Source: a phage
Direction: 5' to 3' (one strand)
Length of the DNA: 64,000 nucleotides
Assembly: GCA_025677605.1 (NCBI GenBank)
Contig: GCA_025677605.1_4110.1
Shown here: piece after piece, positions 8,022-63,023 of the stretch
How positions within the stretch are numbered: position 1 is the first letter of the stretch
Layout: every line of letters starts with the position of its first letter
Position numbers and translations under genes: made by a program
Notes under the pieces: generated by a model
What the model saw: only the letters and a program-made list of their open reading frames with translations
Databases searched by the model: none
What the model was told of the DNA's origin: nothing

Positions 8022-10135
<2,114 letters not shown>

Positions 10136-10146
10136 AGTACTTCTCC

Positions 10147-10923: not shown

Positions 10924-10965
10924 AGCAACCTCTTTTAATTTAAGGTATTATACTTTATTTAGCAT

Positions 10966-10993
10966 AAAAAAAGCCCCGAAATAGTTTCGAGGC
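10966..10993 (-). terminator. rho-independent terminator
   Basis: Minus-strand hairpin GCCUCGAAA-CUA-UUUCGGGGC (one G-U pair) followed by UUUUUU; lies between the two tube paralogues. Confidence 0.5.
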
Positions 10994-11010
10994 TTTAGAA
11001 GTATCTTTAA

Positions 11011-11694
11011 TTAATCAAAGAAGTTTGTATCAGGTAGTGTAGTACTACTAATGTTGGTTTGTGCACCACTAATAGAAGATGCAGTACTTGGATTACCGAA
11101 ACCAGTAACTTCATCACCGAATGCTTCACCGTTTGGACCCAACTTAGCACAACCATCTGGTTGAACAGTCATAGTAATAACTTGTGCTTCGCTTGAAGAA
11201 TAATCCCAATCACCAAAGTTGCTGGATTCAATAAAGCAACCCTGACAAACCCAAGTACTTAGAGTACCTTCAAAAAGGTTTGTTGCATTTTCGCTATTAG
11301 AACCATCTAGTTCTTGAATCCACATTTCAAATTTAAACTGGGAATCAGTCATACGTGATTCTTGACTATAGTAGTTGAATTCTTTACGCATTTGGTTGTA
11401 AAGTGCTTTTGCTGAAGCATTACCAACTGAATCACGGAAAGCAACTTCAATCGCATCCCAAGTATATTTGCCTTTATAGTGTGCGGAACTGTTATAACTA
11501 TGAACAGTTACGTTTTCATGCGATACAGATACTGCACCAACAGTGTTTGTATCTAGTGTAATCATGTTGCCATCATCATTGGCACCAAAACCAAAGAAAA
11601 TTACACGGAATTTATATTTTGCTTTTGGTTGTTTCATTGAAATACGACCACCACCAGCAAGCGGAACGCCATATCGATCTAGCATAGTAGCCAT
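11011..11694 (-). CDS. tail tube protein (227 aa)
   Basis: Immediately downstream of the sheath gene; size and position typical of a myovirus tube protein; strong RBS AGGAGAA before ATG at 11694. Confidence 0.6.
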   Translation of the reverse strand: MATMLDRYGVPLAGGGRISMKQPKAKYKFRVIFFGFGANDDGNMITLDTNTVGAVSVSHENVTVHSYNSSAHYKGKYTWDAIEVAFRDSVGNASAKALYNQMRKEFNYYSQESRMTDSQFKFEMWIQELDGSNSENATNLFEGTLSTWVCQGCFIESSNFGDWDYSSSEAQVITMTVQPDGCAKLGPNGEAFGDEVTGFGNPSTASSISGAQTNISSTTLPDTNFFD

Positions 11695-11840
11695 TAATTA
11701 ATTCTCCTATTAGGAAATGAGATCTTTATATTATTTATAAAAATTAACATACTTTATGTAGTACTTAATGATATGTTTTATCTATAGGGAACCAATCCAT
11801 ATTAATACAATATGTGTACTGGAATTCACCAGTATATAGC

Positions 11841-12011
11841 TTAAACCTTACACCGAACTGACCATCTGCCATTTGTATAAGCAGAAAAATCACTCACAAT
11901 ACCCACATCTTTTAATACTTCCATTAAGGCTTCTATAAGATTTTGGGCTTCTTCTTGTGATTCTGAATTAAAGGCCAATTCTTGCAGGATACTTTTAATT
12001 ATTTCGTCCAT
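11841..12011 (-). CDS. small hypothetical protein (56 aa)
   Basis: Unlisted ORF (below track size cutoff): ATG at 12011 with GAGAGGGA RBS, in the 395-bp gap between sheath and tube genes. Confidence 0.3.
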   Translation of the reverse strand: MDEIIKSILQELAFNSESQEEAQNLIEALMEVLKDVGIVSDFSAYTNGRWSVRCKV

Positions 12012-12054
12012 ATATCCCTCTCACCTTACTGAATATATGGTATTTAATTTAAAC

Positions 12055-12081
12055 AATAAAAAAGGGAACCATATGGTTCCC
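12055..12081 (-). terminator. rho-independent terminator after the sheath gene
   Basis: Perfect 7-bp stem GGGAACC/GGTTCCC with ATAT loop, 8 nt after the sheath stop, followed by UUUUUU on the minus strand. Confidence 0.6.
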
Positions 12082-12089
12082 TTAGTGTG

Positions 12090-33078: not shown

Positions 33079-35862
33079 TTATAATTCACTATAACGATTG
33101 TGTGAGTTCAGTCTGTACATTGAGTACAAACCAAGACCACGCATGATTTCACCAGCCCAAAATCCAAAGAACATCCCATTGTCTGAATCTTCTCGAACTG
33201 CTGGACTCCATGAGCCGTTCATCGGTGAACCTGGTTTTGTTATTACATAGTTATTTTGCAATTCATCAACCAATCTGTCAACCATTTCTGGTAAGCGTTC
33301 AATCTTGCACCCAGCTAAGCCACATGCACTACCACCTGCCAACCACAATCCACACATATGTCCTGTGAAATCCCATGCTGGGCCTTCAACTGTTCCATCT
33401 TTATTAAAGATTGTTGGTGAACGACCTTCATTTTCATCCTGGAATTGAATTAAAAAGTTAATCCAGTTCTCACAGAACTCAACCAATTCAACTGGTGGTT
33501 CTTCACCACGCTCTGCTAATTCTTGCCAGCAACGAGCCGCCCCAAAGAATGCACGTGGTTCATATCCACTCCATGCTTCATCACCCCAGTGTAACATTGT
33601 AAACGTATCAGGTTCACCATATTTGAGGTTGTCCCAGCGGTTCCATACATATGCCTGTGCACAAGGACCAACTGTACCGAATTGGTTTGTAAACCATTCT
33701 TGTGAATCTTTCATAAAATCCAACATATTACCCATTCTTGTATGGTCTACTGGTTCGTCTTTAAAGCAGTAAATTACTGGGTATTGGTATCCAGGATATG
33801 GTAGTCCACGCCACCCACCGTACTGATTTGCATATGGGTCAGTAATATTTGAAAATGGAATAGTACCAGGAGTGTAACGTAACGAATTTAATTCATAATC
33901 TTTAATTACACAATCCCCCAAATACGCCGAATATGCTGCTGTTCCAGAAACAGTAATAGAGAATGTCATTGTATAGTCATCGCCATTTTCGGATGTATAT
34001 AGTGGTGGAATATCATTTATACAATACCATTGGATTTTAGCAGTCCCATTGATTGGTGTTGTATCGGGTAATAGAGTGAAATCTTCCAATTCACTATATA
34101 CTGGGGCTTCTGGGTCAGGATCATCGCTGTGATTTGGCTGATACCCAGAAAGATGTAAATCCTCTGGTTTCAATTCTATTGTGGTCCATTCGCCATGTGT
34201 AGCAGGAATCATCCACCACCAACGCCATCCATTATCATCTTCGATTCTGATATTAAAATCATCATCATATGAACGATATGTAAAAGAATTAATAGGTGCT
34301 TTTTCTGAATCCAGTAGCCAGAATCCAACAACTATACCACCATCTTCACCAGTACTGATATCGCATATAGTATCAACTCTGGAACCAAGAATATCAGTAC
34401 TATATTCCATTTTATATATAGCCCCACCATAATCCACTACTGAACGACTGTCAGCCATAATATAAGAGCTACCATCATCTTTCTTCTCACGGACAAAAAC
34501 ACTTAATGGAGTTTCAGAGTGTTTAATTTCAGTACTGGTACTCAGTGGTAAACCACAACGGTATCTTATAGCATCATTATCACTTTTTGTTTTTGATAAG
34601 TCAAGTACTGGCTTAAATGTTAATGGAGAACCATCATCACATATTCCACCATAATCAACAACCAATTTCGAATCAGAATTTAGTCTGAACCATATTGCTT
34701 GCTGTTCAAGAGTACTTTGTGCACTTTGTTCCTGGCGTATTCTGATATAACCATCAACGTTGCGGGAATATGTAGCAATCGCATCACTTGGATAAAAATA
34801 ATCATATGAAATACCATCAGTAAATGGCGTAGATACTTTAGTACTTTGTCTGAAGAATTTATCAAATGCATCAATGTCACCATATGCATAACAAGTAAGT
34901 AAAGAACATTTCCATCCAAGATAATGTTTTCTTTCCTTTGTTATTTTATATAACAAGTAAGAAGCATCACTGAACCATAATTCAGCATCAGATGCGTTAT
35001 CAGCAAAGTCAAGCGTAATAGGAACATGTAATGGACGGTTGTGTTGCATCTGATTACGTGCGATGTACGTACCACCAAATTCAACAGGTTGTCTATTAGC
35101 GAAGTTTAATTTATAAACACCATTTAATGTTCTGTCTTTTACCTGTACTGTTCCTTTTTCTGACTCATAGTGTCCAGTACTGATAATATCCCCATTATAA
35201 TCTACTTTACGTCCTAAGTAATCAATTACCCAATCAACATCATATTGTTCACCAGGGTTATCCCAGTCAGTACTACCATCTGGTAATATTGCCTGTACTG
35301 ACGCGTTAATCTGATTCCATGCAAGTGCACCTTTGAATGCAAAAGTAACTTTATCAAGGAATTGACCATAATACGGCTCATCATGTGGAATACGACATTG
35401 ACCATCTATGAAATTAAATTCTACGCCTTTGAATCCACCGTGAGTAGGCCAATCATCATCTGACAAAGGCCAGTTAGCAAGTATTGGTTCTTTAGCATTC
35501 ACAATCCAGTTACATTGTAATGGACGTGGTGGATCTGGAAACTGTCTATTAGCATAAAAATATTTGTGATATGCGTCCCAATAATACTTAGCTTTATCCA
35601 AAAACATTTCATCATTAGTTGCAAGATAAGCATAGATATAACCAATGATCAAAAGACTTTGACCCTCAGTTGTCCCGTCACCATTTGGTTGACCTTCCAT
35701 TGCACTGAAATTAATAAAATGACGGTTATTTGCTAATACACCTTGATCGTTTATTACGTAATGCTGTTTTGTTGGATCTACTGTATCACCTGTATTTCTT
35801 TCTAAAAATCTATGATGACCATAAAGTAATTGTATAACGTTATCTATGTTATATTTTGTCAT
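33079..35862 (-). CDS. large virion-associated protein, possible polysaccharide-degrading enzyme (about 927 aa)
   Basis: ORF in track; ATG at 35862 removes a 50-nt overlap with the upstream gene; W/Y/G-rich C-terminal half reminiscent of glycoside hydrolase folds (inference only). Confidence 0.45.
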   Translation of the reverse strand: MTKYNIDNVIQLLYGHHRFLERNTGDTVDPTKQHYVINDQGVLANNRHFINFSAMEGQPNGDGTTEGQSLLIIGYIYAYLATNDEMFLDKAKYYWDAYHKYFYANRQFPDPPRPLQCNWIVNAKEPILANWPLSDDDWPTHGGFKGVEFNFIDGQCRIPHDEPYYGQFLDKVTFAFKGALAWNQINASVQAILPDGSTDWDNPGEQYDVDWVIDYLGRKVDYNGDIISTGHYESEKGTVQVKDRTLNGVYKLNFANRQPVEFGGTYIARNQMQHNRPLHVPITLDFADNASDAELWFSDASYLLYKITKERKHYLGWKCSLLTCYAYGDIDAFDKFFRQSTKVSTPFTDGISYDYFYPSDAIATYSRNVDGYIRIRQEQSAQSTLEQQAIWFRLNSDSKLVVDYGGICDDGSPLTFKPVLDLSKTKSDNDAIRYRCGLPLSTSTEIKHSETPLSVFVREKKDDGSSYIMADSRSVVDYGGAIYKMEYSTDILGSRVDTICDISTGEDGGIVVGFWLLDSEKAPINSFTYRSYDDDFNIRIEDDNGWRWWWMIPATHGEWTTIELKPEDLHLSGYQPNHSDDPDPEAPVYSELEDFTLLPDTTPINGTAKIQWYCINDIPPLYTSENGDDYTMTFSITVSGTAAYSAYLGDCVIKDYELNSLRYTPGTIPFSNITDPYANQYGGWRGLPYPGYQYPVIYCFKDEPVDHTRMGNMLDFMKDSQEWFTNQFGTVGPCAQAYVWNRWDNLKYGEPDTFTMLHWGDEAWSGYEPRAFFGAARCWQELAERGEEPPVELVEFCENWINFLIQFQDENEGRSPTIFNKDGTVEGPAWDFTGHMCGLWLAGGSACGLAGCKIERLPEMVDRLVDELQNNYVITKPGSPMNGSWSPAVREDSDNGMFFGFWAGEIMRGLGLYSMYRLNSHNRYSEL

Positions 35863-35863
35863 T

Positions 35864-36493
35864 TTATACCCCTGCTCGAATAAGAGCACCGTACCATGTA
35901 ATACCACCATCATAGGTTTCTAGGGAAATTATATCTTTTTGGGATTGTTCATATGAAAGAAGAACTTGACGATTGAATGACCATTTCACATTAGAACTCC
36001 AGCTTACAAGATTTGAACCTGTGCCTTGTTCTATGATAACAGTGCAATCATATACTTGAGTTTTAGCATTAGGAAGGATATTAATTGTAGTGTTTGGTTT
36101 GTTTAGAGTTAAATTAAAAACTTTATTACCAGTACTGGTATCTATATCGTAACTATCAGCTTGTGGTAATACTGTCACAGTACTGTTGGAGCTATCATAT
36201 AATGTAACCCATTCAGTACTGTTTGTGTCATTTGTTGTGCGTGCTTGTATTTTAACACCGTTATTAGTCTCTGTCATCCCAGCCCACGCAGCAATCTGTA
36301 ACGATTGGTTGCTATCTGTTCCTAGTGTTGTAATCACTGAATTACTTAAATGATTATCTGCACCAGAAATTTCGTGTGTTCTGATAATATTAAAAGACGA
36401 TGTATCAAATGTTAATATTGGTTTTTTAAATTCAGCTTTCGAGAATTTAACAACACCAGTAACTTCCATTGTGGTGTAAAAGGAAATAGCCAT
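35864..36493 (-). CDS. hypothetical structural protein (209 aa)
   Basis: ORF in track; T/S/N-rich beta-type composition typical of fibre or adhesin proteins. Confidence 0.4.
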   Translation of the reverse strand: MAISFYTTMEVTGVVKFSKAEFKKPILTFDTSSFNIIRTHEISGADNHLSNSVITTLGTDSNQSLQIAAWAGMTETNNGVKIQARTTNDTNSTEWVTLYDSSNSTVTVLPQADSYDIDTSTGNKVFNLTLNKPNTTINILPNAKTQVYDCTVIIEQGTGSNLVSWSSNVKWSFNRQVLLSYEQSQKDIISLETYDGGITWYGALIRAGV

Positions 36494-38220: not shown

Positions 38221-38724
38221 TTAACTCCTGTAATATTGTAAGTATTCGTTCTTTGCATCATCCAATTCTTTTTGTTCCTGAATTTTATTGTCGATATCTT
38301 TCACGTTAGTAATACTGTTATATAGTGCGTGAAGTACAAGAAAATCAGATACAGAAGTTGAAAAATCCTTCCACCCAACCGATATTTTAATACGCACACG
38401 TATATCACGTCCGTCCATCCAGAACATGAACCCTCGATTCCCACGTAAATCATTAATCATATACACTTTAAAACAAGAATCTCGTGTGCTGCTTTCTAGT
38501 CTTTCAAAATCTACATGAATACTGAACAAGTTTTTTGAACAGTACTTACAAAATGCATAGATAACAGGATCACATTTTGAAAGAAGATATTTGTTTTGGA
38601 TAATTTCTCTGCGATCTTTGTCTGATTTAATATTAGGTACTAATAAAGTACTTTTGTTTAAAATCAACGCAACTAAGTACTGAATAATATCATTATCTTT
38701 TACTTTATGTTTACCGAAGATCAT
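38221..38724 (-). CDS. hypothetical protein, member 3 of a tandem paralogue trio (167 aa)
   Basis: Shares N-terminal (…SD/TD-x-D/E-R-R/K…LS-K/S-H/C) and C-terminal (L-x-L/F-H-x-L…) blocks with the two adjacent genes. Confidence 0.45.
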   Translation of the reverse strand: MIFGKHKVKDNDIIQYLVALILNKSTLLVPNIKSDKDRREIIQNKYLLSKCDPVIYAFCKYCSKNLFSIHVDFERLESSTRDSCFKVYMINDLRGNRGFMFWMDGRDIRVRIKISVGWKDFSTSVSDFLVLHALYNSITNVKDIDNKIQEQKELDDAKNEYLQYYRS

Positions 38725-39224
38725 TAGTATAATCCTTTTAGTTTATTAAATTCATTAAGTTTATGCTGCTCGTATTCTAACTTCTTGTACTTTGTTTCAA
38801 GCTCACGAAGTGCAACGAGTAAATGAAACAAAAACATTTGTTCATGTTTAGGTAGAATATTCGCATCTCCGTTAATATAAACAAATGTATGTTTTTCATC
38901 ATAATCTTTAGATGAATATGTTACTGCATTAAAATCAACCTTAGTTTCGGTATCAAACAATTTTACACGGTTGATATGATTACCATATATGAATACTGGT
39001 TCATATAACCAACGTTCACCGTATGGTTCTTTAACTAGGTCTGTGATTAGTTTCATTAGAGAATGAGAACTTAACATTTCTTTAATTTTAAGTATAGTTC
39101 TACGATCTTCATCAGTACGGATAATTTCTTTTAAAGAATAGCTTTTCATCAGTACTGGAAGAATTAATGTACACCACTCTACATTTTCTCTTTTGTGATC
39201 ATTATTTTTCTTTTTGAAAAACAT
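38724..39224 (-). CDS. hypothetical protein, member 2 of a tandem paralogue trio (166 aa)
   Basis: SLKEIIRTDEDRRTILKIKEMLSSH and MFLFHLLVALRELE blocks paralogous to neighbours. Confidence 0.45.
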   Translation of the reverse strand: MFFKKKNNDHKRENVEWCTLILPVLMKSYSLKEIIRTDEDRRTILKIKEMLSSHSLMKLITDLVKEPYGERWLYEPVFIYGNHINRVKLFDTETKVDFNAVTYSSKDYDEKHTFVYINGDANILPKHEQMFLFHLLVALRELETKYKKLEYEQHKLNEFNKLKGLY

Positions 39225-39233
39225 AGTAACCTC

Positions 39234-39794
39234 TTAATATAAATCAGTTATTCTCTTTTGGATTTTGAATTTACGCTGTTCTTCTTCAATTTGTGATAAC
39301 TTTTCTTTAATATCTTCAGCACCAATAATCACATGGAACAGGATCATTAACTCATCGTCATCAAGCATATCATAATGAACACCGAAGTTTGAAGAAACAA
39401 CACATGATAAATCTCTTGATTGAATGATAGTTTCTTCGGTTCTGTGTTCAATCCCTGCTGGTGTATAATCGACCTTAAACATGATTGCATTTTTTAAATC
39501 ACGTAGTGTGAATTCTTCATCACCACCCCACAGTTTTTTTTGAACCATAGACCAACGATCACTGAATGGATTTTGGGTGTATTCTGCCAGTAATCCATAT
39601 AGTTTATGCTTACTTAACTTGTACTTAAGTTCGATAAGTGATTTACGTTCATTATCGGTTTTCACAAAATCTTTAAGAGTTACACTTTTGCATAGCAAAC
39701 GAACTACTAGGGTATTCTGAAAGTGCTGCTCTTTTTCTTTTAAACGTTGTAACTGTGCTGGTGACAGCGGTGGTCTAAAACGTGATTGTACCAT
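39234..39794 (-). CDS. hypothetical protein, member 1 of a tandem paralogue trio (186 aa)
   Basis: TLKDFVKTDNERKSLIELKYKLSKH and LMILFHVIIGAEDIKE blocks; strong RBS AGGAGGA; consensus promoter immediately upstream. Confidence 0.45.
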   Translation of the reverse strand: MVQSRFRPPLSPAQLQRLKEKEQHFQNTLVVRLLCKSVTLKDFVKTDNERKSLIELKYKLSKHKLYGLLAEYTQNPFSDRWSMVQKKLWGGDEEFTLRDLKNAIMFKVDYTPAGIEHRTEETIIQSRDLSCVVSSNFGVHYDMLDDDELMILFHVIIGAEDIKEKLSQIEEEQRKFKIQKRITDLY

Positions 39795-39816: not shown

Positions 39817-39845
39817 ATTATACGGATAAAAGAAAAGCCTGTCAA
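39817..39845 (-). promoter_or_regulatory. consensus sigma70 promoter TTGACA-N17-TATAAT
   Basis: Minus strand: -35 TTGACA (39840-39845) inside the terminator hairpin, 17-nt spacer, -10 TATAAT (39817-39822), about 20 nt upstream of the ATG at 39794. Confidence 0.55.
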
Positions 39846-39866
39846 TAGACAGGCTTAATTTTTTTA
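39835..39866. terminator. bidirectional rho-independent terminator
   Basis: Perfect 9-bp stem AAGCCTGTC/GACAGGCTT with AATA loop; T-runs on both sides; overlaps the tail-fibre stop codon. Confidence 0.6.
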
Positions 39867-42605
39867 ACTCCAACGAGTACCAGATTGTGATGGTAACCCA
39901 GAACTAGCTGGGATAGCAGAACCACGATTGTAGGTACTTGGGCGGTATAGCAAGAATCTGGACACTTTTTCAGACTCGATTGATGCAATACCATTAGCAT
40001 CAGTTACTATCTTACCAATGTAGGTTGATGTCATAGTTTCTGATAATTGATATAGTGATATCTGATACGAAGCTGTAGATGTACCTCTATCCATAACCGC
40101 ATATATGTAGAATGTTGAATTATCTGGTGTAGTACTTATGGTAGATAAGTCTATCATAGTCGGTGGTATCTTTGCAAACTTTCCACCCAAGAAAACTGGT
40201 ACTTCTTGTGAAAAGTACACGTTGAACCCTTGTGCCACATCCTGTGAAGCAACAACTAAGTACTGTGATATCGTTTCATTACCAGATATTAGTTTATCCA
40301 TATCTGCTTCAGTAGTACCACATACAGCAAAAACTGATTTAGTTTGATAATCGTTTTTGTTCATTTGGTAATATCCAAACCCAATCCCTGGAATTGTACC
40401 TATATCAAATTGTGCGTTTGAAATATAAGTTGTTTCCATATATCGTTGACTTGAAATAATACCATTTTTCACTTTAGCAATCATGTTAGGATAACGAGTC
40501 CAACCTGGGGTATCAATGCCATATAAAATGTTCACACCTAAGTAGTTAAAACCACTAAACTTAGCAACAGTCATACCAGCCCAACGTTTGATCATTTCAT
40601 TTGGTGAAATTTGGAATGTATTCGTGATTGATGTATATCTTGCTGTATCAACACTAATACCACGTAAAATTATAGTACCACTTGTACCCAGTGCACTACA
40701 TGATATTTCGGAAAAAATAATATAACACACGTTGGTAGTACCGTTTAGTGCAGAAGTGACTGCAATAGATTTAGAATATGTAGTATCAGGTACATAATAA
40801 AAAACAGTTTTATGTTCAGTTATTCCAGTCAATCCGGCTTTAGCAACGGCATTATAACCTATACCTGATAATGTAGTTCCTGAAATTTCATATCTATCAC
40901 TGTTAAAGTCCATTGTAACAGGGTCGAATTTTCCATAAGCTGGTTTATCGATACCTTCTATTAAAGAAGATCCATAAGTGCTGACATTTCCATTGGCATC
41001 AACCAATGTTACCATACCTGCATATTTGTAATCAGTACTTAAATAGTGTCTATTACCTGATGGTGCAAAACCATTCATTGTGGTATTTTGTTCCAAGTTT
41101 TTATAACTATAAGTTGGATTCTCACCTATTTCAGTAAAAACTGTACTATCATAACCATAAGAAATTCCATCAGCAGTACCAGAACATGCAACAAGTATCT
41201 TACGTTTATCTACGAAACGAACACCTATTAAGTTTTCACCGACAGGGGAGCCATAAACTGGCATTACTTCTACACGTTTTAAATTACTACCAGTACGTGT
41301 TTTAGCAACCCAACTATCATAAGGTGTACCAGAAACTTTGTATGTTTGTACTGCATAGGTCGGCATGGATGACCATCTTGCTTTGGTAGTGAAAACAAAA
41401 CCATCAGAAGTTTGACAGATTGAACCATAGTTACCAAGTGCACCATCATAAAACCCTGTAAAGTTTTCCATATTGATTGAAAACGGGTTACTCACTGTTA
41501 TACTACCAGTTGATGTATTAGCTGATACTCTGATTGGACCACGTTCAGAACCGTCAAGTGTCATTGTTTTAGTACTGATATCATATGTAAAGCTGATACC
41601 AAGTGCATATACACCAGATGTTTTTGTTGCGGTAAAGACACGAAACCCTGGATATATCGCTACTCTTATTTTTGTACCATCAGGACTGATAACTGCTTGT
41701 GTATTAAATGCGTTATTTTCCCAATAATCTATTCTGGAAACACCATTATCATATGCTATTAGTGCATCACCACCTGAACCCAACACTGAATAACTATCAT
41801 AAACACGAATATTATTAGATGCAGTGTATGTTACATTTCTTATAGTTCTTCCTGAATAACCACTAATCTGTGTTACTGTCGAAACTGAACCAGTATTAAA
41901 TGCAGTTAAAGGTACTGTGTATATGATAAATGCACACCCGCGAACACTACTCAATACACTTGAATCCATACACCATATATAAACTGAATCATTTACGATG
42001 TGTGCATAGATTGGTTTATTTGTTATTGCTGTTTTTGGAATTCTGCAATGTTTGTGTGCTGATTCATTTAATGTTTCATTTGTTAATGTAAGGTAGTATG
42101 ATGCTCTATCAGTTGATTCCCAAAATAGTAATTCATATGCATTTGACCCATAAAATTCATAAATGTAATCAGTGCTTGGTAGCACAGAAGGTCTATACAT
42201 CGTGTTGGTTGTAATTATATTATCTTGAGTTAGTGTTTCTATATCTCTTATATTTTTAATATAAGCATAATAGTAACCATACGAACTTCCATTTGTACCT
42301 GCACGTAAAATTACACCAGTACCATCATTTTCAATGATACAAGGTTGCATTATTTTTGCAAATGAAAAGGAAGAAGCACCTTCAAATGTACCGTTAATAC
42401 TCATCGGTAGGTAATCTTGATCACCTACCCTTGAAACTGGAAGCATATCAAACATCTGATCTACTTCCGCTTTGTCATAATATTGGTAAGTGATTTTACC
42501 AGCAGAATCAGCAGGGAATCCATTAAAGGAACGTAATGCATACTTTCCATTAATTTTCAAATTCCCTAGTATTTCTGCGTTTCCTATAATTCGTCTCGAA
42601 GCCAT
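39864..42605 (-). CDS. tail fibre protein (about 913 aa)
   Basis: N-terminal and C-terminal domains paralogous to the 894-aa fibre; C-terminal approximately 190 aa shared with two other genes and ending in a Trp; ATG at 42605 with AAAGGAA RBS. Confidence 0.6.
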   Translation of the reverse strand: MASRRIIGNAEILGNLKINGKYALRSFNGFPADSAGKITYQYYDKAEVDQMFDMLPVSRVGDQDYLPMSINGTFEGASSFSFAKIMQPCIIENDGTGVILRAGTNGSSYGYYYAYIKNIRDIETLTQDNIITTNTMYRPSVLPSTDYIYEFYGSNAYELLFWESTDRASYYLTLTNETLNESAHKHCRIPKTAITNKPIYAHIVNDSVYIWCMDSSVLSSVRGCAFIIYTVPLTAFNTGSVSTVTQISGYSGRTIRNVTYTASNNIRVYDSYSVLGSGGDALIAYDNGVSRIDYWENNAFNTQAVISPDGTKIRVAIYPGFRVFTATKTSGVYALGISFTYDISTKTMTLDGSERGPIRVSANTSTGSITVSNPFSINMENFTGFYDGALGNYGSICQTSDGFVFTTKARWSSMPTYAVQTYKVSGTPYDSWVAKTRTGSNLKRVEVMPVYGSPVGENLIGVRFVDKRKILVACSGTADGISYGYDSTVFTEIGENPTYSYKNLEQNTTMNGFAPSGNRHYLSTDYKYAGMVTLVDANGNVSTYGSSLIEGIDKPAYGKFDPVTMDFNSDRYEISGTTLSGIGYNAVAKAGLTGITEHKTVFYYVPDTTYSKSIAVTSALNGTTNVCYIIFSEISCSALGTSGTIILRGISVDTARYTSITNTFQISPNEMIKRWAGMTVAKFSGFNYLGVNILYGIDTPGWTRYPNMIAKVKNGIISSQRYMETTYISNAQFDIGTIPGIGFGYYQMNKNDYQTKSVFAVCGTTEADMDKLISGNETISQYLVVASQDVAQGFNVYFSQEVPVFLGGKFAKIPPTMIDLSTISTTPDNSTFYIYAVMDRGTSTASYQISLYQLSETMTSTYIGKIVTDANGIASIESEKVSRFLLYRPSTYNRGSAIPASSGLPSQSGTRWS

Positions 42606-42615
42606 ATATATTCCT

Positions 42616-43206
42616 TTACCATTCTGTCCCACTATTCACATCTGGTGTACCAGAACTGATAGGGATAGCTGAACCAATTTTTGTAGCACTTACTCTGAAG
42701 TCGTCAAATCTTGACACTTTATTTATACTGACCCCTGTAATGCCATCTGGGAAAACTGTCAGTTGTCCTATGTACATATTAACACTACTTTCAGGGCGTT
42801 GAGTTTTAGAAATGAGGTAGTCAGCTACCCCAACATCTAATATAACATATACATAATGTGTTTCAATATTAGTACCAGTAACTCCTGGGTCCGTTATTGT
42901 TTTAGCAGGGAGGGTATAAACCGCTCCCGCCATGAACAATGGTAATTCTTTACTGAAAGTCAATTTGAATCCAGCGGCAGTAATACCTAATGGTTCATTA
43001 CTGTAAAGTGAACCAAATTGTGATAACGGAAAGGAACTGGTAATGTAATTCACATCATCTGTACTCATGAGTGGTACATCAACATTCCCATTAGCATCAG
43101 CTTGATACACATTACCAGAACGATCAGTTATCGTGGTCCCAGTATTTTTTCCTTGTGATTTAACGGAAGCATACGCTTCCACATCAGATCTAAATTTATA
43201 AGCCAT
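42616..43206 (-). CDS. tail fibre C-terminal-domain paralogue (196 aa)
   Basis: Aligns with the last approximately 190 aa of both long fibre proteins (…KVSRFDDFRV…SSGTPDVNSGTEW); GGAG RBS. Confidence 0.5.
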   Translation of the reverse strand: MAYKFRSDVEAYASVKSQGKNTGTTITDRSGNVYQADANGNVDVPLMSTDDVNYITSSFPLSQFGSLYSNEPLGITAAGFKLTFSKELPLFMAGAVYTLPAKTITDPGVTGTNIETHYVYVILDVGVADYLISKTQRPESSVNMYIGQLTVFPDGITGVSINKVSRFDDFRVSATKIGSAIPISSGTPDVNSGTEW

Positions 43207-43216
43207 ATTATCTCCA

Positions 43217-45901
43217 TTACCAATTCACATTACCAGAACTTGAAGGGAACCCAGAACTAACTGGGAAGGAACTTCCGGCAGCGTCGAATGATGAACCAAA
43301 CAGGTCTAAACGCGAACGTTTTGCTATATTAATTTCGGTTATTTGTAAATTATCAGTTTTCACTGTACCAATCCAGAATATTGAATGAGTTTCAGCTAAT
43401 TCAGTTGTTGATATATGATAGTTTGCAATACCCTGTACTAATTTAATATACACATAAAATGTAGTATTGGCAGGATTTGCTTTCACAGTTGTTAAATCTA
43501 TATTTGATATTGGTAATGTATAGTGTTTACCGGATATCAGTACTGGTGTCTCTTCGGTGAAGTATATAATAAAACCTTGAGCAACATCTTGGGAAACAAG
43601 ACATATAAATGGATTTCCTTTATCAGTCCATGCATTATAATCCGCTAATGTTGTACCATATGTTCTAAAAATTGTTTTGTTATTATTATCTATACTTTGA
43701 AGAATACCAAACCCAATGTTAGGTAAAGCGAATGGTTGACCATCTAATGCATAGATCGGACGTGCACCAGCTATATGGAAATTATTAAATTGGGCTGTCG
43801 CTTTATCCACTGTAGCACGGAAAAATGGAGAGTTTGTATTACCAACTGTATTAAAGAAACCAGGAATACCACCACCAATGAAGTAGAAAGAACCCGCATC
43901 ATATATAGTAATACCAATACTTCCACTATCAAGATGATATGCGGTATCTGTTTTGTAATCCCCAGCTTGAACACTTTCATGTACTAAACGTTTGAACGAC
44001 CATGTTGTAATATCACCAGTTCTTGTATTGACATTCAATTCAACAACTCGAATATATAGACCACGGGCTGTAGTAGATGCTGCAAGAACACCAAAAACAG
44101 GAATATCAGTTTGTTGTGGAACAAATACAGATAATGTTTTTATTGATGCTGGTGATATATTCCATGAACTAGCAACTTTAGCAAATTCGGAATTTCTAAT
44201 GGAATTCATTATATCTTGTGACATACTGATTGTACCATTATTCAGTACATTACCTTTATAATCAAAACTAATTGGCGTTGATGTTCTATTATCAGCCACC
44301 AAAACACCACCATTAGTCGTTACCGTTGAACCAGAAATTGAACTTATAAAAATTCTAGATTCTGGTGTAGTTATAAACGCTCGGTCTGGTGTTGGTTCAT
44401 AGCCAAGAACATTACCATAGTCTAGAGACTTAAATGTAAAGTTCGGGGTAGCTTTATGTACAGCATAGGATGGATAAAAACGACCATCACCTGAACGTCT
44501 TGAATATTGCTTAGTACTGTTATTTGGTAATAACTCCACACCCACTTGGAATGAACCAACTGCTGAACCAAATCTTGGTGATACGACACCATTAATAAAA
44601 TCAGTTGCCGATACACTTCTAACATCCATTAAATCAAATAATGATTTGGGTGGGTATTTTGCATATGATATATTCAATGCTTCTGCAAGGTTTGGTGAAA
44701 ATGAGCAAAACGCATCCCCAGTTGATGGAACATAGCAATAATTACTGAAAATGTTACGTCCACCTGCGTGAAGATAAAACGGGTCAGTTGTTAAACATGG
44801 ACCAGATTCATTCATGCTTGTACCATTATCATAAACAGCAACTGGTGTAGTAGTTGTCATATTATCCAATGCACATTGCTTAGTAGCAATATCAAAAGTC
44901 ATACTAAAACTGTGTTGTGGTCGTATATCATATCTGCCGTTAGTCATCCACATATCGCCACATAATCTAAATTTAAATGTAGTTGTACCTGATTTCTGTG
45001 CAACATATAAATCTGGATCTGTCATATAAATACCAAACCCAATAATACCACTTGGAATTAAAACGTATGGATTATCATTGGTATTTGTTGAATTTATTTT
45101 CATAGTTGGAACAATATTGTCATCATATACCATTGCATTATAAAAAGTTCTTGTGGCCCAACCAGTAATTCTAGTAACACTATAAGTACCACCACCTGGG
45201 TTATTACTTGGACTAAAAGTAACTTTAACCACTGATATTTTAAGAGTATTGCTTGGTGTATCTAAACTGAAAAAGTATAATGCACCATCTTCTGCACGAA
45301 TAACAAATTGTACTTCACCAATTGGCCTAACTGAAGCATAGTCATCAATTAAAATTCCGGTATGCATTGCATCGTTCATTGTGCCATTATTAACGGATAC
45401 AAAAAGTTTATTAATTGAACCATTACTTGCCATACCACATGTAATATCATCACTACATGAATATAAATGGTATGCATAATAATCACCAAAATAATTTGGT
45501 TTATATGCACGAGTAGTATTAACCATACGACTTGTATTTGTTGTACCAACCGCCTGGGTCATATAACTATAATAAACCCCTTGTGTACTCCCATTTGTAC
45601 CAGGACGTAGCATTACTAAAGTGTTATCATCTTCCAAAAATAATTTTGTATTTCTGGATTTAGTATTTTCTGAAGAACCAACTGTTGTACCATTGACACC
45701 AGCAGGTAGATAGTTTTGTGTACCATAACGAGAAATGGGTAACATACCAACCATTTCCAGCATATCATCTTGTGTATATGCATCTATTGTGAGATTGCCA
45801 TTTTCATCAAATACGTTATCATTGATGCTCTGAACACTTCTCTTACCTTTGACTGTTACATTATGTGTAACATCAATGCCACCATATATTTTCTTTGCCA
45901 T
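43217..45901 (-). CDS. tail fibre protein (894 aa)
   Basis: Paralogue of the 913-aa fibre; 5' UTR AAAGGGATATAT-ATG nearly identical to that of the paralogue. Confidence 0.6.
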   Translation of the reverse strand: MAKKIYGGIDVTHNVTVKGKRSVQSINDNVFDENGNLTIDAYTQDDMLEMVGMLPISRYGTQNYLPAGVNGTTVGSSENTKSRNTKLFLEDDNTLVMLRPGTNGSTQGVYYSYMTQAVGTTNTSRMVNTTRAYKPNYFGDYYAYHLYSCSDDITCGMASNGSINKLFVSVNNGTMNDAMHTGILIDDYASVRPIGEVQFVIRAEDGALYFFSLDTPSNTLKISVVKVTFSPSNNPGGGTYSVTRITGWATRTFYNAMVYDDNIVPTMKINSTNTNDNPYVLIPSGIIGFGIYMTDPDLYVAQKSGTTTFKFRLCGDMWMTNGRYDIRPQHSFSMTFDIATKQCALDNMTTTTPVAVYDNGTSMNESGPCLTTDPFYLHAGGRNIFSNYCYVPSTGDAFCSFSPNLAEALNISYAKYPPKSLFDLMDVRSVSATDFINGVVSPRFGSAVGSFQVGVELLPNNSTKQYSRRSGDGRFYPSYAVHKATPNFTFKSLDYGNVLGYEPTPDRAFITTPESRIFISSISGSTVTTNGGVLVADNRTSTPISFDYKGNVLNNGTISMSQDIMNSIRNSEFAKVASSWNISPASIKTLSVFVPQQTDIPVFGVLAASTTARGLYIRVVELNVNTRTGDITTWSFKRLVHESVQAGDYKTDTAYHLDSGSIGITIYDAGSFYFIGGGIPGFFNTVGNTNSPFFRATVDKATAQFNNFHIAGARPIYALDGQPFALPNIGFGILQSIDNNNKTIFRTYGTTLADYNAWTDKGNPFICLVSQDVAQGFIIYFTEETPVLISGKHYTLPISNIDLTTVKANPANTTFYVYIKLVQGIANYHISTTELAETHSIFWIGTVKTDNLQITEINIAKRSRLDLFGSSFDAAGSSFPVSSGFPSSSGNVNW

Positions 45902-45946
45902 ATATATCCCTTTTATCTAGATATCCATAGTGTATTTATAATAGTA

Positions 45947-45970
45947 TAAAAAAAGCACCCAAAGGGTGCT
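45947..45970 (-). terminator. rho-independent terminator
   Basis: Perfect 7-bp stem AGCACCC/GGGTGCT with AAA loop, followed on the minus strand by UUUUUUU; 8 nt after the small ORF stop. Confidence 0.6.
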
Positions 45971-45977
45971 TCTTCAT

Positions 45978-60788: not shown

Positions 60789-60811
60789 TCCTAAAATACT
60801 TTTGGTATAAT
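60783..60811 (+). promoter_or_regulatory. extended -10 promoter (TTTTAA-N17-TGgTATAAT)
   Basis: TGgTATAAT at 60803-60811, about 40 nt upstream of the ATG at 60855. Confidence 0.4.
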
Positions 60812-60854
60812 ATAAATAATATAACACTACAATACAATTTATAAAGGAAAGTAT

Positions 60855-63023
60855 ATGAAAGCAATATCTAGTGAAGGTAAATTGCCTTTTGGTATTGGTG
60901 GTATTAAAGTTTCTGTCGCTAAAATCGATGGTAAGGTGTTAACCGAAACTTTATATATTAACCGTCAACGTTCCGGTAACGTGTATGATCTCATCAATGA
61001 TAATGGTGATATCTATTACAAAGTTTCCATGCGTTGGTATGATACTCGTGGTATCGACATTCCAAATTCTGTTGAACCAGCAGACGCAATTAATATGGTT
61101 CAAGACAATTCATTCATGATCTATGTTGATGATGGTATTAGCATGGGATATACTATGCTTTATATGGGTCGTGTTATTAAATTAAATAATGGTCGCATCG
61201 TAAAACGCGATTATGTTAATGCTGATATCCCCGTAACTGGTGTTGTAATTACACCCAAAGATGCATCTCTTAAAGTTGGTGCAACAAAACAACTATCAGC
61301 CCAAGTAGTTCCATCTAATGCAAAAGACAAGGCAGTAACCTACTCTTCATCTGCTCCTACAATCGTTGAAGTTGATGCTCAAACAGGTCTAGCAACTGCA
61401 CTTGCAAATGGCAATGCTGATGTAACCGTAACAACTCACGATGGTGATTTCACAGATGTGTGTTCTATCGTTGTCAGTACTGGTGTTACAGGTGTTACTG
61501 TTTCTCCTAAAACTGCAACGGTGAATGTTGGAGAAACTCAACAATTGTTAGCTGAAGTTTCTCCTGCATCTGCAACTGATAAGAAAGTTACATGGGCTTC
61601 ATCTGCTCCATCCGTTGCAACAGTTGATAAAGATTCTGGGTTGGTAACAGGTGTATCCAATGGTGATGTTACTATTACTGCAACAACTGAAGATGGTTCA
61701 TTGACTGATACTTCTTCTATTAAAGTTCAAACAGCAGTAACTGGTGTTACGTTAACACCTGAAACATATACATTCACTACTATTGGTGCAAATGAACCAT
61801 TAACAGCAACGGTACTACCAAGAACTGCATCAAATCAGGAAGTTCGTTATGAATCTTCTGCACCTACAGTAGCAGAAGTTGATGATGACGGTTTAGTAAC
61901 TTCTGTTAATAATGGTACTGCCACTATTACCGTAACAACTATTGATGGTGAAAAAACCGCACAATCAATTATTGATGTGACGATCCCAGTAACTGGTATT
62001 AACCTAACACCTGCAACCGCTTCATTAACTTCTGTTGGTGCAACACAGCAATTAACTGCAACTGTTCTACCAGCTAATGCTCGTAACAAAGCAGTAACAT
62101 ACGCAACTTCTGCTGCTGGTGTTGCAACCGTTAGTACAAGTGGTTTAATCACTGCGGTAGCGAATGGCACTGCTAATATCACGGCTACTACTGCTGATGG
62201 TGGCTTTAGTAAAGTTTGTGCAGTAACTGTAGCAATTCCAGTTCCAGTAACAACTATTAATGTTACTCCAGCAACTAAAACATTGACTGCTGTTAACGCA
62301 ACTCAAGCAATGGCTGCTGAAGTTCTTCCAGCTAACGCAACTAATAAAGCTGTAACATGGTCTTCTAGTGCACCTGCTGTAGCGAAAGTTGATGCTAGTA
62401 CTGGTGTTGTAACTGCGTTAACTAACGGTACTGCAAACATTATCGCAACTGCCGCTGATGGAAGTGGTAAAACAGGTCAAGGTGTCATTACTGTGTCAAT
62501 CCCAGTTCCTGTAGCTAGTGTTTCTGTTTCTCCAACAACAGCAACATTAACATCTGTTGGTGCAACTCAACAACTAACACCAACTGTACTACCAGCTAAT
62601 GCTACTAACAAAGCAGTAACTTATAGTACTTCTGCTGCTGGGGTCGCAACTGTTAGTGCAAGTGGTTTAATCACTGCTGTTGCAAACGGTACTGCTGATA
62701 TCACTGTAAAAACTACTGATGGTGCAAAAACTGCAAAATGTGCTGTAACTGTTAATATTCCAGTACCAGTATCCAGCGTTGGTTTAACACCTAAAGCCAC
62801 TGATCTTTCACTATCAGGTACTAAAACAGTTCAACTAGTTCCAGAAGTTCTTCCAGCTAACGCAACTAACAAATCAGTAACTTATAGTGCAGATGAACCT
62901 ACTAAAGTATCTATTAGTGATGATGGATTAGTAACTGCTCTAGAAGAAGGTACTGTAGTCATTACAGTGACTACTGTGAATGGCAATAAAACTGATACTG
63001 CAACTGTAACAATCAGTGCTTAA
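60855..63023 (+). CDS. Ig-like (Big_2) repeat protein with paralogue N-terminal domain (722 aa)
   Basis: N-terminal approximately 130 aa paralogous to neighbours; then about seven tandem approximately 80-aa repeats with the Big_2-type pattern (VTGVTVSP…VTWSSSAP.VATVD..GLVT.V.NG.A.ITATT.DG); RBS AAGGAAA. Confidence 0.7.
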   Translation: MKAISSEGKLPFGIGGIKVSVAKIDGKVLTETLYINRQRSGNVYDLINDNGDIYYKVSMRWYDTRGIDIPNSVEPADAINMVQDNSFMIYVDDGISMGYTMLYMGRVIKLNNGRIVKRDYVNADIPVTGVVITPKDASLKVGATKQLSAQVVPSNAKDKAVTYSSSAPTIVEVDAQTGLATALANGNADVTVTTHDGDFTDVCSIVVSTGVTGVTVSPKTATVNVGETQQLLAEVSPASATDKKVTWASSAPSVATVDKDSGLVTGVSNGDVTITATTEDGSLTDTSSIKVQTAVTGVTLTPETYTFTTIGANEPLTATVLPRTASNQEVRYESSAPTVAEVDDDGLVTSVNNGTATITVTTIDGEKTAQSIIDVTIPVTGINLTPATASLTSVGATQQLTATVLPANARNKAVTYATSAAGVATVSTSGLITAVANGTANITATTADGGFSKVCAVTVAIPVPVTTINVTPATKTLTAVNATQAMAAEVLPANATNKAVTWSSSAPAVAKVDASTGVVTALTNGTANIIATAADGSGKTGQGVITVSIPVPVASVSVSPTTATLTSVGATQQLTPTVLPANATNKAVTYSTSAAGVATVSASGLITAVANGTADITVKTTDGAKTAKCAVTVNIPVPVSSVGLTPKATDLSLSGTKTVQLVPEVLPANATNKSVTYSADEPTKVSISDDGLVTALEEGTVVITVTTVNGNKTDTATVTISA
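61230..62990 (+). repeat. tandem coding repeats (approximately 240-bp period) encoding the Big_2 Ig-like domains
   Basis: Reiterated Ig-like domain units within CDS 60855-63023; copies are diverged, not identical. Confidence 0.6.

What the first reader, a model, noticed from the sequence alone, without database searches (positions are those of the whole stretch)
39864..45901. Three tail-fibre genes sharing one C-terminal domain, including a stand-alone 196-aa copy
The 913-aa and 894-aa fibre proteins are paralogous at both ends and have near-identical 5' leaders. A separate 196-aa gene between them corresponds to just the shared C-terminal domain (each ending in a Trp). This may be a domain-swap reservoir for host-range switching, or a fibre assembly or attachment module.
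Basis: seen in the sequence. Interest (0 to 1): 0.45.

Follow-up and report, generated by a model that had tools for sequence, protein, structure and literature searches.

The report
Three baseplate-type virion paralogs, one miniaturised
In this jumbo coliphage, three neighbouring late genes encode related virion proteins whose conserved ends are predicted to form a baseplate-docking "shoulder" fold; the 196-aa middle gene is a full-length paralog that lost its ~720-aa central part, not a spare host-range cassette.

Summary
The window is 99.4% identical to Escherichia phage A4, a 355-kb Asteriusvirus. The three genes exist as described: 894, 196 and 913 aa, on the minus strand.

The two long proteins are paralogous over their whole length (25% identity, E 3e-53). 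The 196-aa protein shares the C-terminal ~120 aa (36-39% identity).

In sister genera (CBB, XbC2) the same locus holds three full-length paralogs. The 196-aa protein is the ortholog of the middle one, with an in-frame loss of about 720 residues. Other phages have made similar cuts independently in the other two paralogs. All three window genes are under purifying selection (dN/dS 0.17-0.25).

Orthologs of both long proteins were detected in virions by mass spectrometry. The short one has not been detected.

The domain-swap reservoir idea is not supported: the three coding regions share only about 50% DNA identity. The attachment-module idea is supported at fold level. This is a new variant of a known kind, of moderate interest.

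The parts
45953..45971 (-). Terminator hairpin (AAGCACCC-TTT-GGGTGCTT followed by a T-run on the minus strand) ending the upstream nrdG-side transcription unit; upstream boundary of the three-gene unit
   Evidence: Read directly; hairpin listed.
45933..45940 (-). TATAAATA, a T4-type late-promoter-like motif 32 nt upstream of the p894 start codon
   Evidence: The same motif sits 37-38 nt upstream of the tail-tube gene (11732-11739) and of an Ig-domain structural gene (60811-60818). ATAAATA is reported before structural genes in CBB and GAP32 (PMC5259590). Promoter function is inferred, not shown.
45897..45913 (-). Translation-initiation leader AAAGGGATATATATGGC of p894
43217..45901 (-). p894 (paralog 1; A4_495): ortholog of CBB_147, 121Q_499, phAPEC6 gp323c and JP4_233
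   Evidence: phrog_3573 E 1.7e-198. Virion MS detection of the orthologs: phAPEC6 gp323c (PMC7247149) and JP4_233 (PMC12648861 suppl. 2).
45677..45901 (-). p894 N-terminal module (aa 1-75), including the predicted helix aa 44-51 and the LPxSxYG...YLPxGV motif
   Evidence: Conserved across orthologs (0.72-0.74 majority fraction) and 35% identical to p913. Low model confidence for aa 1-61.
43592..45676 (-). p894 central payload (aa 76-770): all-beta, with a 5/6-bladed beta-propeller resembling lectins and sialidases, plus further beta domains
43217..43591 (-). p894 C-terminal module (aa 771-894 plus stop): eight-stranded beta-sandwich (aa ~774-860) and a conserved tail (aa 864-894, ending in W) that is predicted disordered
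42616..43206 (-). p196 (paralog 2, miniaturised; A4_496): ortholog of 121Q_500 and JP4_CDS0587, and of full-length CBB_148 and XbC2_140
   Evidence: phrog_26864 E 1.5e-43. BLASTP to CBB_148 in two blocks. N-terminal tree 97% bootstrap, with a shared 5-6-residue insertion. dN/dS 0.25 against ph0011.
42979..43206 (-). p196 N-terminal module (aa 1-76), with predicted helix aa 49-58
42616..42978 (-). p196 C-terminal module (aa 77-196 plus stop): beta-sandwich aa ~75-161 (pLDDT ~90) and a low-confidence tail aa 168-196 ending in W. The deletion junction is around PLGITAA|GFKLTF
42601..42617 (-). Translation-initiation leader AAAGGAATATATATGGC of p913; it overlaps the p196 stop codon region
39864..42605 (-). 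p913 (paralog 3; A4_497): ortholog of CBB_149, XbC2_141 and JP4_235. N-module 42381-42605, central payload 40245-42380, C-module 39864-40244
   Evidence: phrog_3573 E 2.5e-206. JP4_235 detected in virions.
39835..39856 (-). Terminator hairpin 8 nt after the p913 stop; downstream boundary of the unit. A perfect sigma70-type promoter (39845-39817) for the next genes overlaps it

Best explanation
The three genes form one late-expressed unit that encodes three paralogous, low-copy virion proteins of a family conserved in Rak2-like and other jumbo phages (PHROG 3573/26864).

Each long protein has three parts: a conserved N-terminal ~75 aa, a variable central ~700 aa built around a lectin/sialidase-like beta-propeller, and a conserved C-terminal ~120 aa. 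The C-terminal part is an eight-stranded beta-sandwich followed by a conserved tail that ends in Trp.

The conserved ends are predicted to form the 'shoulder' fold known from lactococcal phage receptor-binding proteins, SPP1 gp22 and T6SS TssK. That fold comprises a helix and two four-stranded sheets. In solved systems, three copies form a trimer that clamps a loop of a baseplate protein.

The most likely mechanism is that each paralog trimerises through this module and docks on a baseplate (or baseplate-proximal) loop, while the propeller projects outward as a glycan-binding or glycan-cleaving head.

The 196-aa protein is the middle paralog after an in-frame deletion of the whole payload (about residues 77-797 of the CBB_148-type ancestor). 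It is a shoulder-only protein that can probably still trimerise and occupy its docking site without a head.

Shown: paralogy, orthology, the deletion, purifying selection, the transcription-unit boundaries, and virion presence of the orthologs of the two long proteins. Inferred: the fold assignment (from models), trimerisation, the docking site, carbohydrate binding, and virion incorporation of p196.
For: - Identity of the window: 99.4% to Asteriusvirus phage A4.
- Paralogy.
- Orthology to the three full-length genes of CBB: p894 to CBB_147 (41%), p913 to CBB_149 (36%). p196 matches CBB_148 in two blocks: aa 1-~76 to 1-~76 (E 1e-15) and aa 79-196 to 798-916 (E 1e-22). XbC2 has the same three long genes.
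- The N-terminal tree joins the p196 clade with CBB_148/XbC2_140/MG7_918 at 97% bootstrap, and they share an insertion.
- Independent deletions in a 355-kb metagenomic phage: a 215-aa protein made of CBB_147 aa 1-59 plus 779-902, and a 568-aa protein made of CBB_149 aa 1-442 plus 786-916. Tree placement agrees.
- Short forms are common: 43 of the best 146 representative clusters are 150-260 aa, and 39 of these have a Trp within the last three residues.
- Selection: dN/dS is 0.17 (p894), 0.25 (p196) and 0.18 (p913) against ph0011.
- The shoulder fold is described as two four-stranded sheets plus a helix that docks on Dit, TssG or arm-scaffold loops (PMC7291167; PMC6300606; PMC13433997).
- The ends are the most conserved parts of the family.
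- Virion MS: phAPEC6 gp323c; JP4_233 and JP4_235 at similar low abundance.
- Unit boundaries and late-promoter-like motif.
Against: - RMSDs are high for the top hits (7.8 Å for p2 RBP), because the termini of the p196 model are poorly defined.
- In known RBPs and TssK the shoulder is N-terminal and contiguous. Here the sandwich is C-terminal and the helix would come from the far N-terminus in the long proteins. That packing is not confidently modelled (pLDDT <50 for p894 aa 40-61, ~58 for the p196 helix).
- The C-terminal-domain tree does not resolve where the p196 clade attaches (support 20-30%).
- p196 orthologs have never been detected in virions. The JP4 protein was absent from the 49 detected, and the phAPEC6 gene was not annotated.
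- CBB's own MS table does not list CBB_147-149.
- The oligomeric state, docking partner and location on the virion were not tested.
Confidence: 0.6

Rival explanations
1. Heterotrimer model. One chain from each of the three genes assembles through the shared N- and C-terminal modules into a single asymmetric complex. In Asteriusvirus this complex would carry two propeller heads and one blank subunit.
For: - The array has exactly three members in every Rak2-like lineage examined, even when one or two are drastically shortened.
- All shortened forms keep both end modules.
- The two long orthologs have similar MS abundance in JP4 (1.8e6 against 2.3e6).
- The end modules are much more alike between paralogs (35-47%) than the middles (17-20%).
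Against: All solved shoulder-domain proteins named in the cited reviews are homotrimers (PMC7291167). Identity of 36-43% between the modules is equally compatible with three homotrimers that bind related loops; TssG and the phi812 arm scaffold each carry two such loops. No direct test was possible.
Confidence: 0.15
2. p196 is a non-structural helper. It would act as a chaperone or assembly factor that transiently pairs with the homologous modules of the long proteins to aid their trimerisation or attachment, and would not be part of the virion.
For: - Its size (196 aa) and its position right after a large fibre-like gene resemble tail-fibre assembly genes such as lambda Tfa or P2 G (own knowledge).
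- It was not detected in JP4 virions.
Against: - There is no similarity to Caudo_TAP or any other Pfam family.
- Its ortholog in CBB, XbC2 and the metagenomic phage is a full-length paralog, and CBB and XbC2 have no short gene at all, so a dedicated chaperone is not a conserved requirement.
- In the metagenomic phage the short gene comes first and derives from a different paralog.
- The JP4 MS is shallow: only 2 peptides for each ~98-kDa neighbour.
Confidence: 0.12
3. Domain-swap reservoir. p196 would be a silent or spare cassette that recombines with the 3' ends of the flanking genes to change host range.
For: The gene lies between two genes that share the same domain.
Against: - DNA identity among the three C-terminal coding regions is about 50%. 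The longest near-matches are 30-36 nt at 73-83%, so there is no substrate for homologous recombination.
- The domain is the conserved part of the family, not the variable part.
- p196 has its own RBS and ATG and is under purifying selection, including its N-terminal module.
- No inverted repeats or invertase or DGR-type features were seen in the unit.
Confidence: 0.03
4. p196 is a decaying remnant of the middle paralog with no function.
For: It arose by loss of about 80% of the ancestral gene.
Against: - The ORF is intact and 195-196 aa long across the genus despite divergence to 41-47% amino-acid identity.
- dN/dS is 0.25.
- Equivalent short forms arose independently and are numerous.
Confidence: 0.03
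5. The proteins belong to, or anchor, the unusual 'hairy' whisker fibres seen at three rings on the tail sheath and on the capsid of phAPEC6 and CBB, rather than to the baseplate.
For: phAPEC6 shows fibres at three annular positions, and their proteins are unidentified (PMC7247149). There are three paralogs, and the family is restricted to jumbo phages.
Against: - The models are globular propeller proteins, not ~120-nm filaments.
- GAP32, which is not reported to have whiskers, has all three genes.
- CBB's MS, which came from whisker-rich virions, does not list CBB_147-149.
- The family also occurs in phages not described as hairy, such as EL and Ea35-70.
Confidence: 0.05

Closest known systems
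CBB_147/148/149 and GAP32_143/144/145 (Mimasvirus and relatives); 121Q_499/500/501; PHROG 3573 and 26864
   Same: This is the true family. The locus is syntenic (after nrdD/nrdG), identity over the full length is 36-41% for the long proteins, and the three-gene array is the same.
   Different: In CBB, XbC2 and GAP32 all three are ~900-917 aa. In Asteriusvirus the middle one is 195-196 aa. None has an assigned function, and none is discussed in the papers I read.
[quoted passage not shown]
   Different: - No sequence similarity was found.
- There the shoulder is N-terminal and followed by a neck and head. Here the sandwich is C-terminal, and the payload lies between the N-terminal helix and the sandwich.
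- This family has an extra conserved ~30-aa C-terminal tail ending in Trp.
- The host phage is a myovirus of Gram-negative bacteria.
T6SS baseplate protein TssK (and Francisella IglD)
   Different: TssK has an N-terminal shoulder, a helical neck and a membrane-complex-binding head. It has no propeller, and there is no sequence similarity.
Bacillus phage SPP1 gp22 (PDB 2XC8)
   Different: gp22 has no known long paralogs beside it. p196 has an extra N-terminal ~45 aa and the C-terminal Trp tail, and is demonstrably derived from a long paralog.
Tripod proteins and docking loops of Staphylococcus phage 812/A511 baseplates
   Different: The domain composition and sequences are different. I did not establish which phi812 protein chain 9euf_0 is.
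Staphylococcus phage phi11 RBP Gp45 (5EFV)
   Same: The overall logic is the same: an anchor module, a beta-propeller platform and further beta domains. It is a weak Foldseek hit (E 7e-5).
   Different: TM-score is only ~0.15. Its anchor is an N-terminal helical stem, not a shoulder.
Tail-fibre assembly proteins (lambda Tfa, P2 G, Mu U; Pfam Caudo_TAP) and C-terminal intramolecular chaperone domains (Peptidase_S74)
   Same: Only superficial resemblance: a ~190-aa gene next to large fibre-like genes, and a domain shared at the C-termini of different fibres.

Membership tests
PHROG 3573 / PHROG 26864 (jumbo-phage proteins of unknown function) | Significant match to the family HMM over most of its length | tested here: met
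   p913 E 2.5e-206 and p894 E 1.7e-198 to phrog_3573; p196 E 1.5e-43 to phrog_26864 over 1-195 of 195 positions.
RBP-shoulder / TssK N-terminal shoulder fold | Fold: two four-stranded antiparallel beta-sheets plus a long helix (PMC7291167) | tested here: met
RBP-shoulder / TssK N-terminal shoulder fold | Sequence-level homology to known shoulder-domain proteins | tested here: not met
   No PDB chain was found by phmmer or by profiles A1 and A5 at E ≤ 1. No Pfam family was found.
RBP-shoulder / TssK N-terminal shoulder fold | The domain lies at the N-terminus and is followed by a neck and head | tested here: not met
   The sandwich occupies the last ~120 aa, and the variable payload precedes it. 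The architecture is therefore permuted or split relative to p2 RBP and TssK.
RBP-shoulder / TssK N-terminal shoulder fold | Homotrimer whose three shoulders clamp a triangular loop of a baseplate protein (Dit, TssG, arm scaffold) | not testable with these tools
   Only monomer prediction was available, and the baseplate wedge genes lie outside the window.
Virion structural protein | Detected in purified virions | tested here: inconclusive
   Orthologs of p894 (phAPEC6 gp323c; JP4_233) and p913 (JP4_235) were detected by MS. The p196 ortholog was not among the 49 JP4 proteins and is unannotated in phAPEC6. No data exist for phage A4 itself.
Tail fibre in the strict sense (elongated trimeric fibre) | Elongated repetitive beta-helix, coiled-coil or collagen-like shaft | tested here: not met
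   The model is a compact all-beta multidomain protein with a propeller (pTM 0.80). No fibre shaft appears among the hits for the long protein.
Beta-propeller lectin / sialidase / GH43-type carbohydrate-active domain | 5- or 6-bladed propeller fold | tested here: met
Beta-propeller lectin / sialidase / GH43-type carbohydrate-active domain | Conserved catalytic or sugar-binding residues | not tested
   Sequence identity to the hits is 5-12%. No residue-level superposition was available.
Tail-fibre assembly chaperones (Caudo_TAP; T4 gp38 type) | Match to the family profile; not homologous to the fibre it serves | tested here: not met
   No Pfam hit. p196 is homologous to both neighbours.
C-terminal intramolecular chaperone domain (Peptidase_S74) | Match to Peptidase_S74 / an autocleaving C-terminal domain | tested here: not met

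The most novel reading that the evidence does not exclude
The shoulder fold in this family is split. Its helix lies in the N-terminal module and its sandwich in the C-terminal module, with a ~700-aa head inserted between them. Excising the head therefore regenerates a compact, functional shoulder. Jumbo phages would exploit this repeatedly, with independent deletions in each of the three paralogs. The result is head-less 'blank' trimers (or blank subunits in heterotrimers) that keep a baseplate docking site filled while changing the valency or the mix of receptor-binding heads. This would be a previously undescribed way of tuning an adsorption apparatus.
Probability: 0.2. Interest if true: 0.55.

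Novelty: new variant of a known kind. Interest (0 to 1): 0.35.

Why it matters
Rak2-like jumbo phages are used and studied as therapeutic and biocontrol agents, yet most of their adsorption apparatus is unassigned. These three genes are 'hypothetical' in A4, 121Q, JP4 and phAPEC6.

Assigning the shared ends to a baseplate-docking shoulder fold and the middle to a glycan-binding propeller gives a testable map. It predicts which part anchors (the ends) and which part contacts the host (the middle).

The finding also corrects the natural reading that a small gene sharing a fibre's C-terminus is a host-range cassette or a chaperone. Recurrent in-frame loss of the head with retention of both ends suggests that the anchor alone has a role. 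That may also bear on the unexplained stand-alone shoulder protein gp22 of SPP1.

Tried and rejected
- Sequence searches of all three proteins, and of profiles A1 and A5, against PDB chains returned nothing.
- Pfam returned nothing, even at E ≤ 1 for all 17 members of A5.
- A global MAFFT alignment of p196 with the long proteins scattered its N-terminus spuriously (A2). I replaced it with A4 and A5, built from short proteins plus window fragments.
- The C-terminal-domain NJ tree did not resolve which paralog p196 derives from. The N-terminal tree and the shared indel did.
- I first took the CBB_148/149 'structural protein' labels as MS evidence. CBB's MS table does not list them, so the labels are homology-based.
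- The Eneladusvirus MS supplement could not be mapped to these genes.
- I considered whether Agricanvirus proteins carry a contiguous helix+sandwich shoulder. BLASTP showed that the apparent contiguity was alignment overhang, and the idea was rejected.
- The count of TATAAATA in the window is not above chance (6 against 9.9 expected). Only its placement before three virion genes is suggestive.
- The neighbouring 927-aa 'tail protein I' and the 209-aa 'tail fiber' gave no Pfam or PDB hits, so no link to a P2 gpI/TssG-type docking partner could be made.
Full report
**What the window is.** The 6-kb region is 99.4% identical to Escherichia phage A4 (ON286972, 355 kb, genus Asteriusvirus) and 91.9% identical to phage ph0011. 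In A4 the three genes are A4_495, A4_496 and A4_497, all annotated 'hypothetical protein'. They lie between the anaerobic ribonucleotide reductase genes and a set of small genes, a nucleotidyltransferase and two tail-annotated genes.

**Checking the observation.**
- 43217-45901, 894 aa.
- 42616-43206, 196 aa.
- 39864-42605, 913 aa from the ATG that carries a good ribosome-binding site. The mechanical ORF starts at a GTG 9 codons upstream.

The two long proteins align from end to end (25% identity, E 3e-53). Identity is uneven: 35% in aa 1-75, 17-20% in the middle, 43% in the C-terminal domain and 47% in the last 32 residues.

p196 aa 77-196 aligns to the C-terminal ~120 aa of both long proteins (36%, E 7e-18; 39%, E 8e-21). 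tblastn of the three proteins against the window found no further copy.

The 'near-identical leaders' are real but short. AAAGGRATATATATGGC occurs only before the two long genes (2 matches against 0.01 expected) and is simply the ribosome-binding site, spacer and first codons.

Two details need correction:
- p196 also shares its first ~65-75 residues with the N-termini of the long proteins (E 2e-5 to p894). It is therefore 'both ends without the middle', not 'the C-terminal domain alone'.
- p913 ends in Trp-Ser, not Trp.

**Origin of the 196-aa gene.** In Pectobacterium phage CBB and Xanthomonas phage XbC2 (both Mimasvirus), the syntenic locus just after nrdG holds three full-length paralogs:
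- CBB_147, 148 and 149: 902, 916 and 916 aa.
- XbC2_139, 140 and 141.

BLASTP gives clean orthology:
- p894 matches CBB_147 (41% identity, full length).
- p913 matches CBB_149 (36%, full length).
- p196 matches CBB_148 in two blocks: aa 1-~76 to 1-~76 (33%, E 1e-15) and aa 79-196 to 798-916 (38%, E 1e-22).

A neighbour-joining tree of the first 80 residues joins the p196/121Q_500/P0043 clade with CBB_148/XbC2_140/MG7_918 at 97% bootstrap. These proteins also share a 5-6-residue insertion absent from paralogs 1 and 3. The tree of the last 125 residues recovers the three paralog clades (83-100%) but does not resolve where the long-branched p196 clade attaches.

The parsimonious reading is an in-frame deletion of about 720 codons in the middle paralog, in the lineage leading to Asteriusvirus. 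The junction is near PLGITAA|GFKLTF.

The gene is not a remnant:
- It is 195-196 aa in 121Q, PBECO4, JP4, Munch and others, at 40-47% identity.
- Its dN/dS against ph0011 is 0.25 (0.19 in the C-module). The neighbours have 0.17 and 0.18.

**The same kind of cut has happened independently.** A 355-kb metagenomic Mimasvirus-like phage (L007) has the array short-long-medium:
- 215 aa, made of CBB_147 aa 1-59 plus 779-902.
- 918 aa, a full-length CBB_148 ortholog.
- 568 aa, made of CBB_149 aa 1-442 plus 786-916.

In the trees, these short forms fall in the clades of paralogs 1 and 3 respectively.

In all three events the C-side breakpoint lies within about 12 residues of the start of the C-terminal sandwich. 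The two complete head losses end the N-side just after the LPxSxYG...PxGV motif.

An exhaustive profile search found 590 representative clusters carrying the module (407 at E ≤ 1e-10). Of the best 146, 43 are 150-260 aa, 40 of these start with Met, and 39 have Trp within the last three residues. Their N-termini come in at least three kinds. Short 'ends-only' proteins are therefore a common, recurrent class in metagenomic phages, although unnamed (PHROG 26864, unknown function).

**Structure of the long proteins.** An AlphaFold2 model of p894 built on 32 sequences is confident (pLDDT 83.9, pTM 0.80) and all-beta. The exceptions are aa 1-61 and the last 31 residues, which have pLDDT below 50.

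- GH43, GH62 and GH130 enzymes.

Whole-chain Foldseek gave only weak propeller hits, including the phi11 RBP. These proteins are therefore not fibres in the strict sense. They are globular, propeller-bearing proteins of the kind phages use to bind or cut surface glycans. Catalytic residues were not assessed.

The part common to p2 RBP, 1358 RBP, gp22 and TssK is the 'shoulder' domain. It is described as two four-stranded antiparallel sheets plus a long helix from each of three subunits. The trimer clamps a triangular loop of Dit (p2, 1358) or TssG (T6SS) (PMC7291167; PMC6300606). In phage 812, tripod-protein trimers likewise bind docking loops of the arm scaffold (PMC13433997).

The module here has the same inventory. 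There are eight strands in p894 aa 778-859 and nine in p196 aa 75-161. One helix comes from the N-terminal module.

I therefore read the conserved ends as a docking module and the middle as the payload. This fits the conservation profile: across 29 p894-type sequences the ends score 0.72-0.79 and the middle 0.51-0.64.

There are limits. This is a fold-level resemblance from predicted models, with no sequence-level link. The order is also unlike the known family: the sandwich is at the C-terminus and the payload comes before it. Whether the N-terminal helix packs onto the C-terminal sandwich in the long proteins is not confidently modelled.

**Expression and virion association.** The three genes form an insulated unit:
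- A terminator hairpin (45953-45971) ends the upstream genes.
- TATAAATA lies 32 nt before the p894 ATG.
- The genes are separated by only 10 nt, and each has its own ribosome-binding site.
- A second hairpin follows the p913 stop (39835-39856). It overlaps a perfect sigma-70 consensus promoter for the next genes.

TATAAATA is not over-represented in the window (6 against 9.9 expected). However, three of the six copies sit 32-38 nt upstream of virion genes in the correct orientation: the tail tube gene, p894, and a protein with seven Big_2 domains. The CBB paper reports ATAAATA before structural genes and a gp55-like sigma factor (PMC5259590). Late expression is therefore likely but inferred.

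Mass spectrometry has found the following in virions:
- The p894 ortholog in phAPEC6: gp323c, 4 peptides (PMC7247149).
- Both long orthologs in JP4: JP4_233 and JP4_235, 2 peptides each, with similar abundance (PMC12648861 supplement 2).

The 195-aa JP4 protein is not among the 49 detected. In phAPEC6, the p196 and p913 orthologs are present in the DNA but unannotated, so they could not have been identified. The 'structural protein' labels of CBB_148/149 are homology-based, because CBB's MS table does not list them.

**Interpretation and rivals.**

Best supported (about 0.6): three paralogous, low-copy, baseplate-type virion proteins anchored by a shoulder-like module. p196 is a shoulder-only derivative that still occupies its site.

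Not excluded:
- A heterotrimer of one chain from each gene (about 0.15). The strict conservation of three genes, and the retention of both ends in every shortened form, are suggestive.
- A non-virion helper role for p196 (about 0.12).

Rejected or unlikely:
- The domain-swap reservoir. DNA identity among the three C-terminal coding regions is only about 50%, with no long exact match. The domain is conserved, not variable. p196 is an independently translated gene under selection.
- A decaying remnant.
- A role as the 'hairy' whisker filaments of phAPEC6 and CBB. The fold is globular, and the genes are present in GAP32 and in phages not described as hairy.
- Tail-fibre assembly proteins and intramolecular chaperone domains, which have no profile or fold support.

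**Novelty and score.** The family itself is catalogued (PHROGs) but functionally unassigned, and I found no paper that discusses these genes. What is new:
- The assignment of the shared ends to the RBP/TssK shoulder fold, in an unusual C-terminal or split arrangement.
- The demonstration that the 196-aa gene is a head-less paralog.
- The recurrence of such head losses.

That makes it a new variant of a known kind. It would be useful to people working on jumbo-phage adsorption but does not overturn anything. Interest is 0.35.

Noticed in passing
window 38221-39794 (- strand): Three tandem small paralogs (186, 166 and 167 aa; phrog_18641/phrog_7868, unknown function) lie immediately downstream of the unit. 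They are preceded by a perfect sigma-70 consensus promoter, TTGACA-17-TATAAT, at 39845-39817, which overlaps the terminator hairpin of the p913 gene.
   Followed up: no
window 11732-11739 (-), 45933-45940 (-), 60811-60818 (+): TATAAATA sits 32-38 nt upstream of the tail tube gene (11011-11694), of p894, and of a 722-aa protein with seven Big_2 Ig-like domains (60855-63023). This looks like a T4-type late promoter, although the motif is not enriched overall: 6 copies against 9.9 expected.
   Followed up: partly
L002 (phAPEC6 MK817115) 10709-11293 and 11313-14036; L009 (121Q) 8382-11042: The phAPEC6 record leaves the orthologs of p196 and p913 unannotated, although intact ORFs are present, so its published virion proteome could not include them. 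The annotated start of 121Q_501 appears 23 codons too short compared with JP4_235.
   Followed up: partly
window 33079-36493 (- strand): A 927-aa 'tail protein I' (phrog_2871; its phAPEC6 ortholog gp314c was detected in virions) and a 209-aa 'tail fiber' (phrog_32568) lie 3.4 kb downstream. Neither has a Pfam or PDB sequence match. The 'protein I' label (P2 gpI/TssG-like) could not be verified, so a possible link to a docking partner remains open.
   Followed up: partly
L005 (Erwinia phage Ea35-70) 878-7870; representative hits P0128, P0136, P0146, P0160, P0196: In Agricanvirus and in some metagenomic proteins the module is not terminal. Ea357_020 carries the conserved '...W' at residue 1000 of 1150, and several 1300-1600-aa proteins have the module around residues 860-1030, followed by 150-600 further residues. 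The family therefore tolerates C-terminal extensions as well as N-terminal ones.
   Followed up: no
representative hits P0071, P0076, P0089, P0096, P0112 etc.: A distinct class of ~225-240-aa stand-alone proteins joins the same C-terminal module to a different N-terminus. That N-terminus is predicted to be helical and contains an 'NPH' motif also seen in the 975-978-aa relatives P0040 and P0041. Their genomic context was not examined.
   Followed up: no
window 12090-14753 (- strand): This is the tail sheath gene (887 aa; phrog_10581, Pfam Phage_sheath_1C). It is adjacent to the tail tube gene in the same window, so the window mixes structural and nucleotide-metabolism genes.
   Followed up: no
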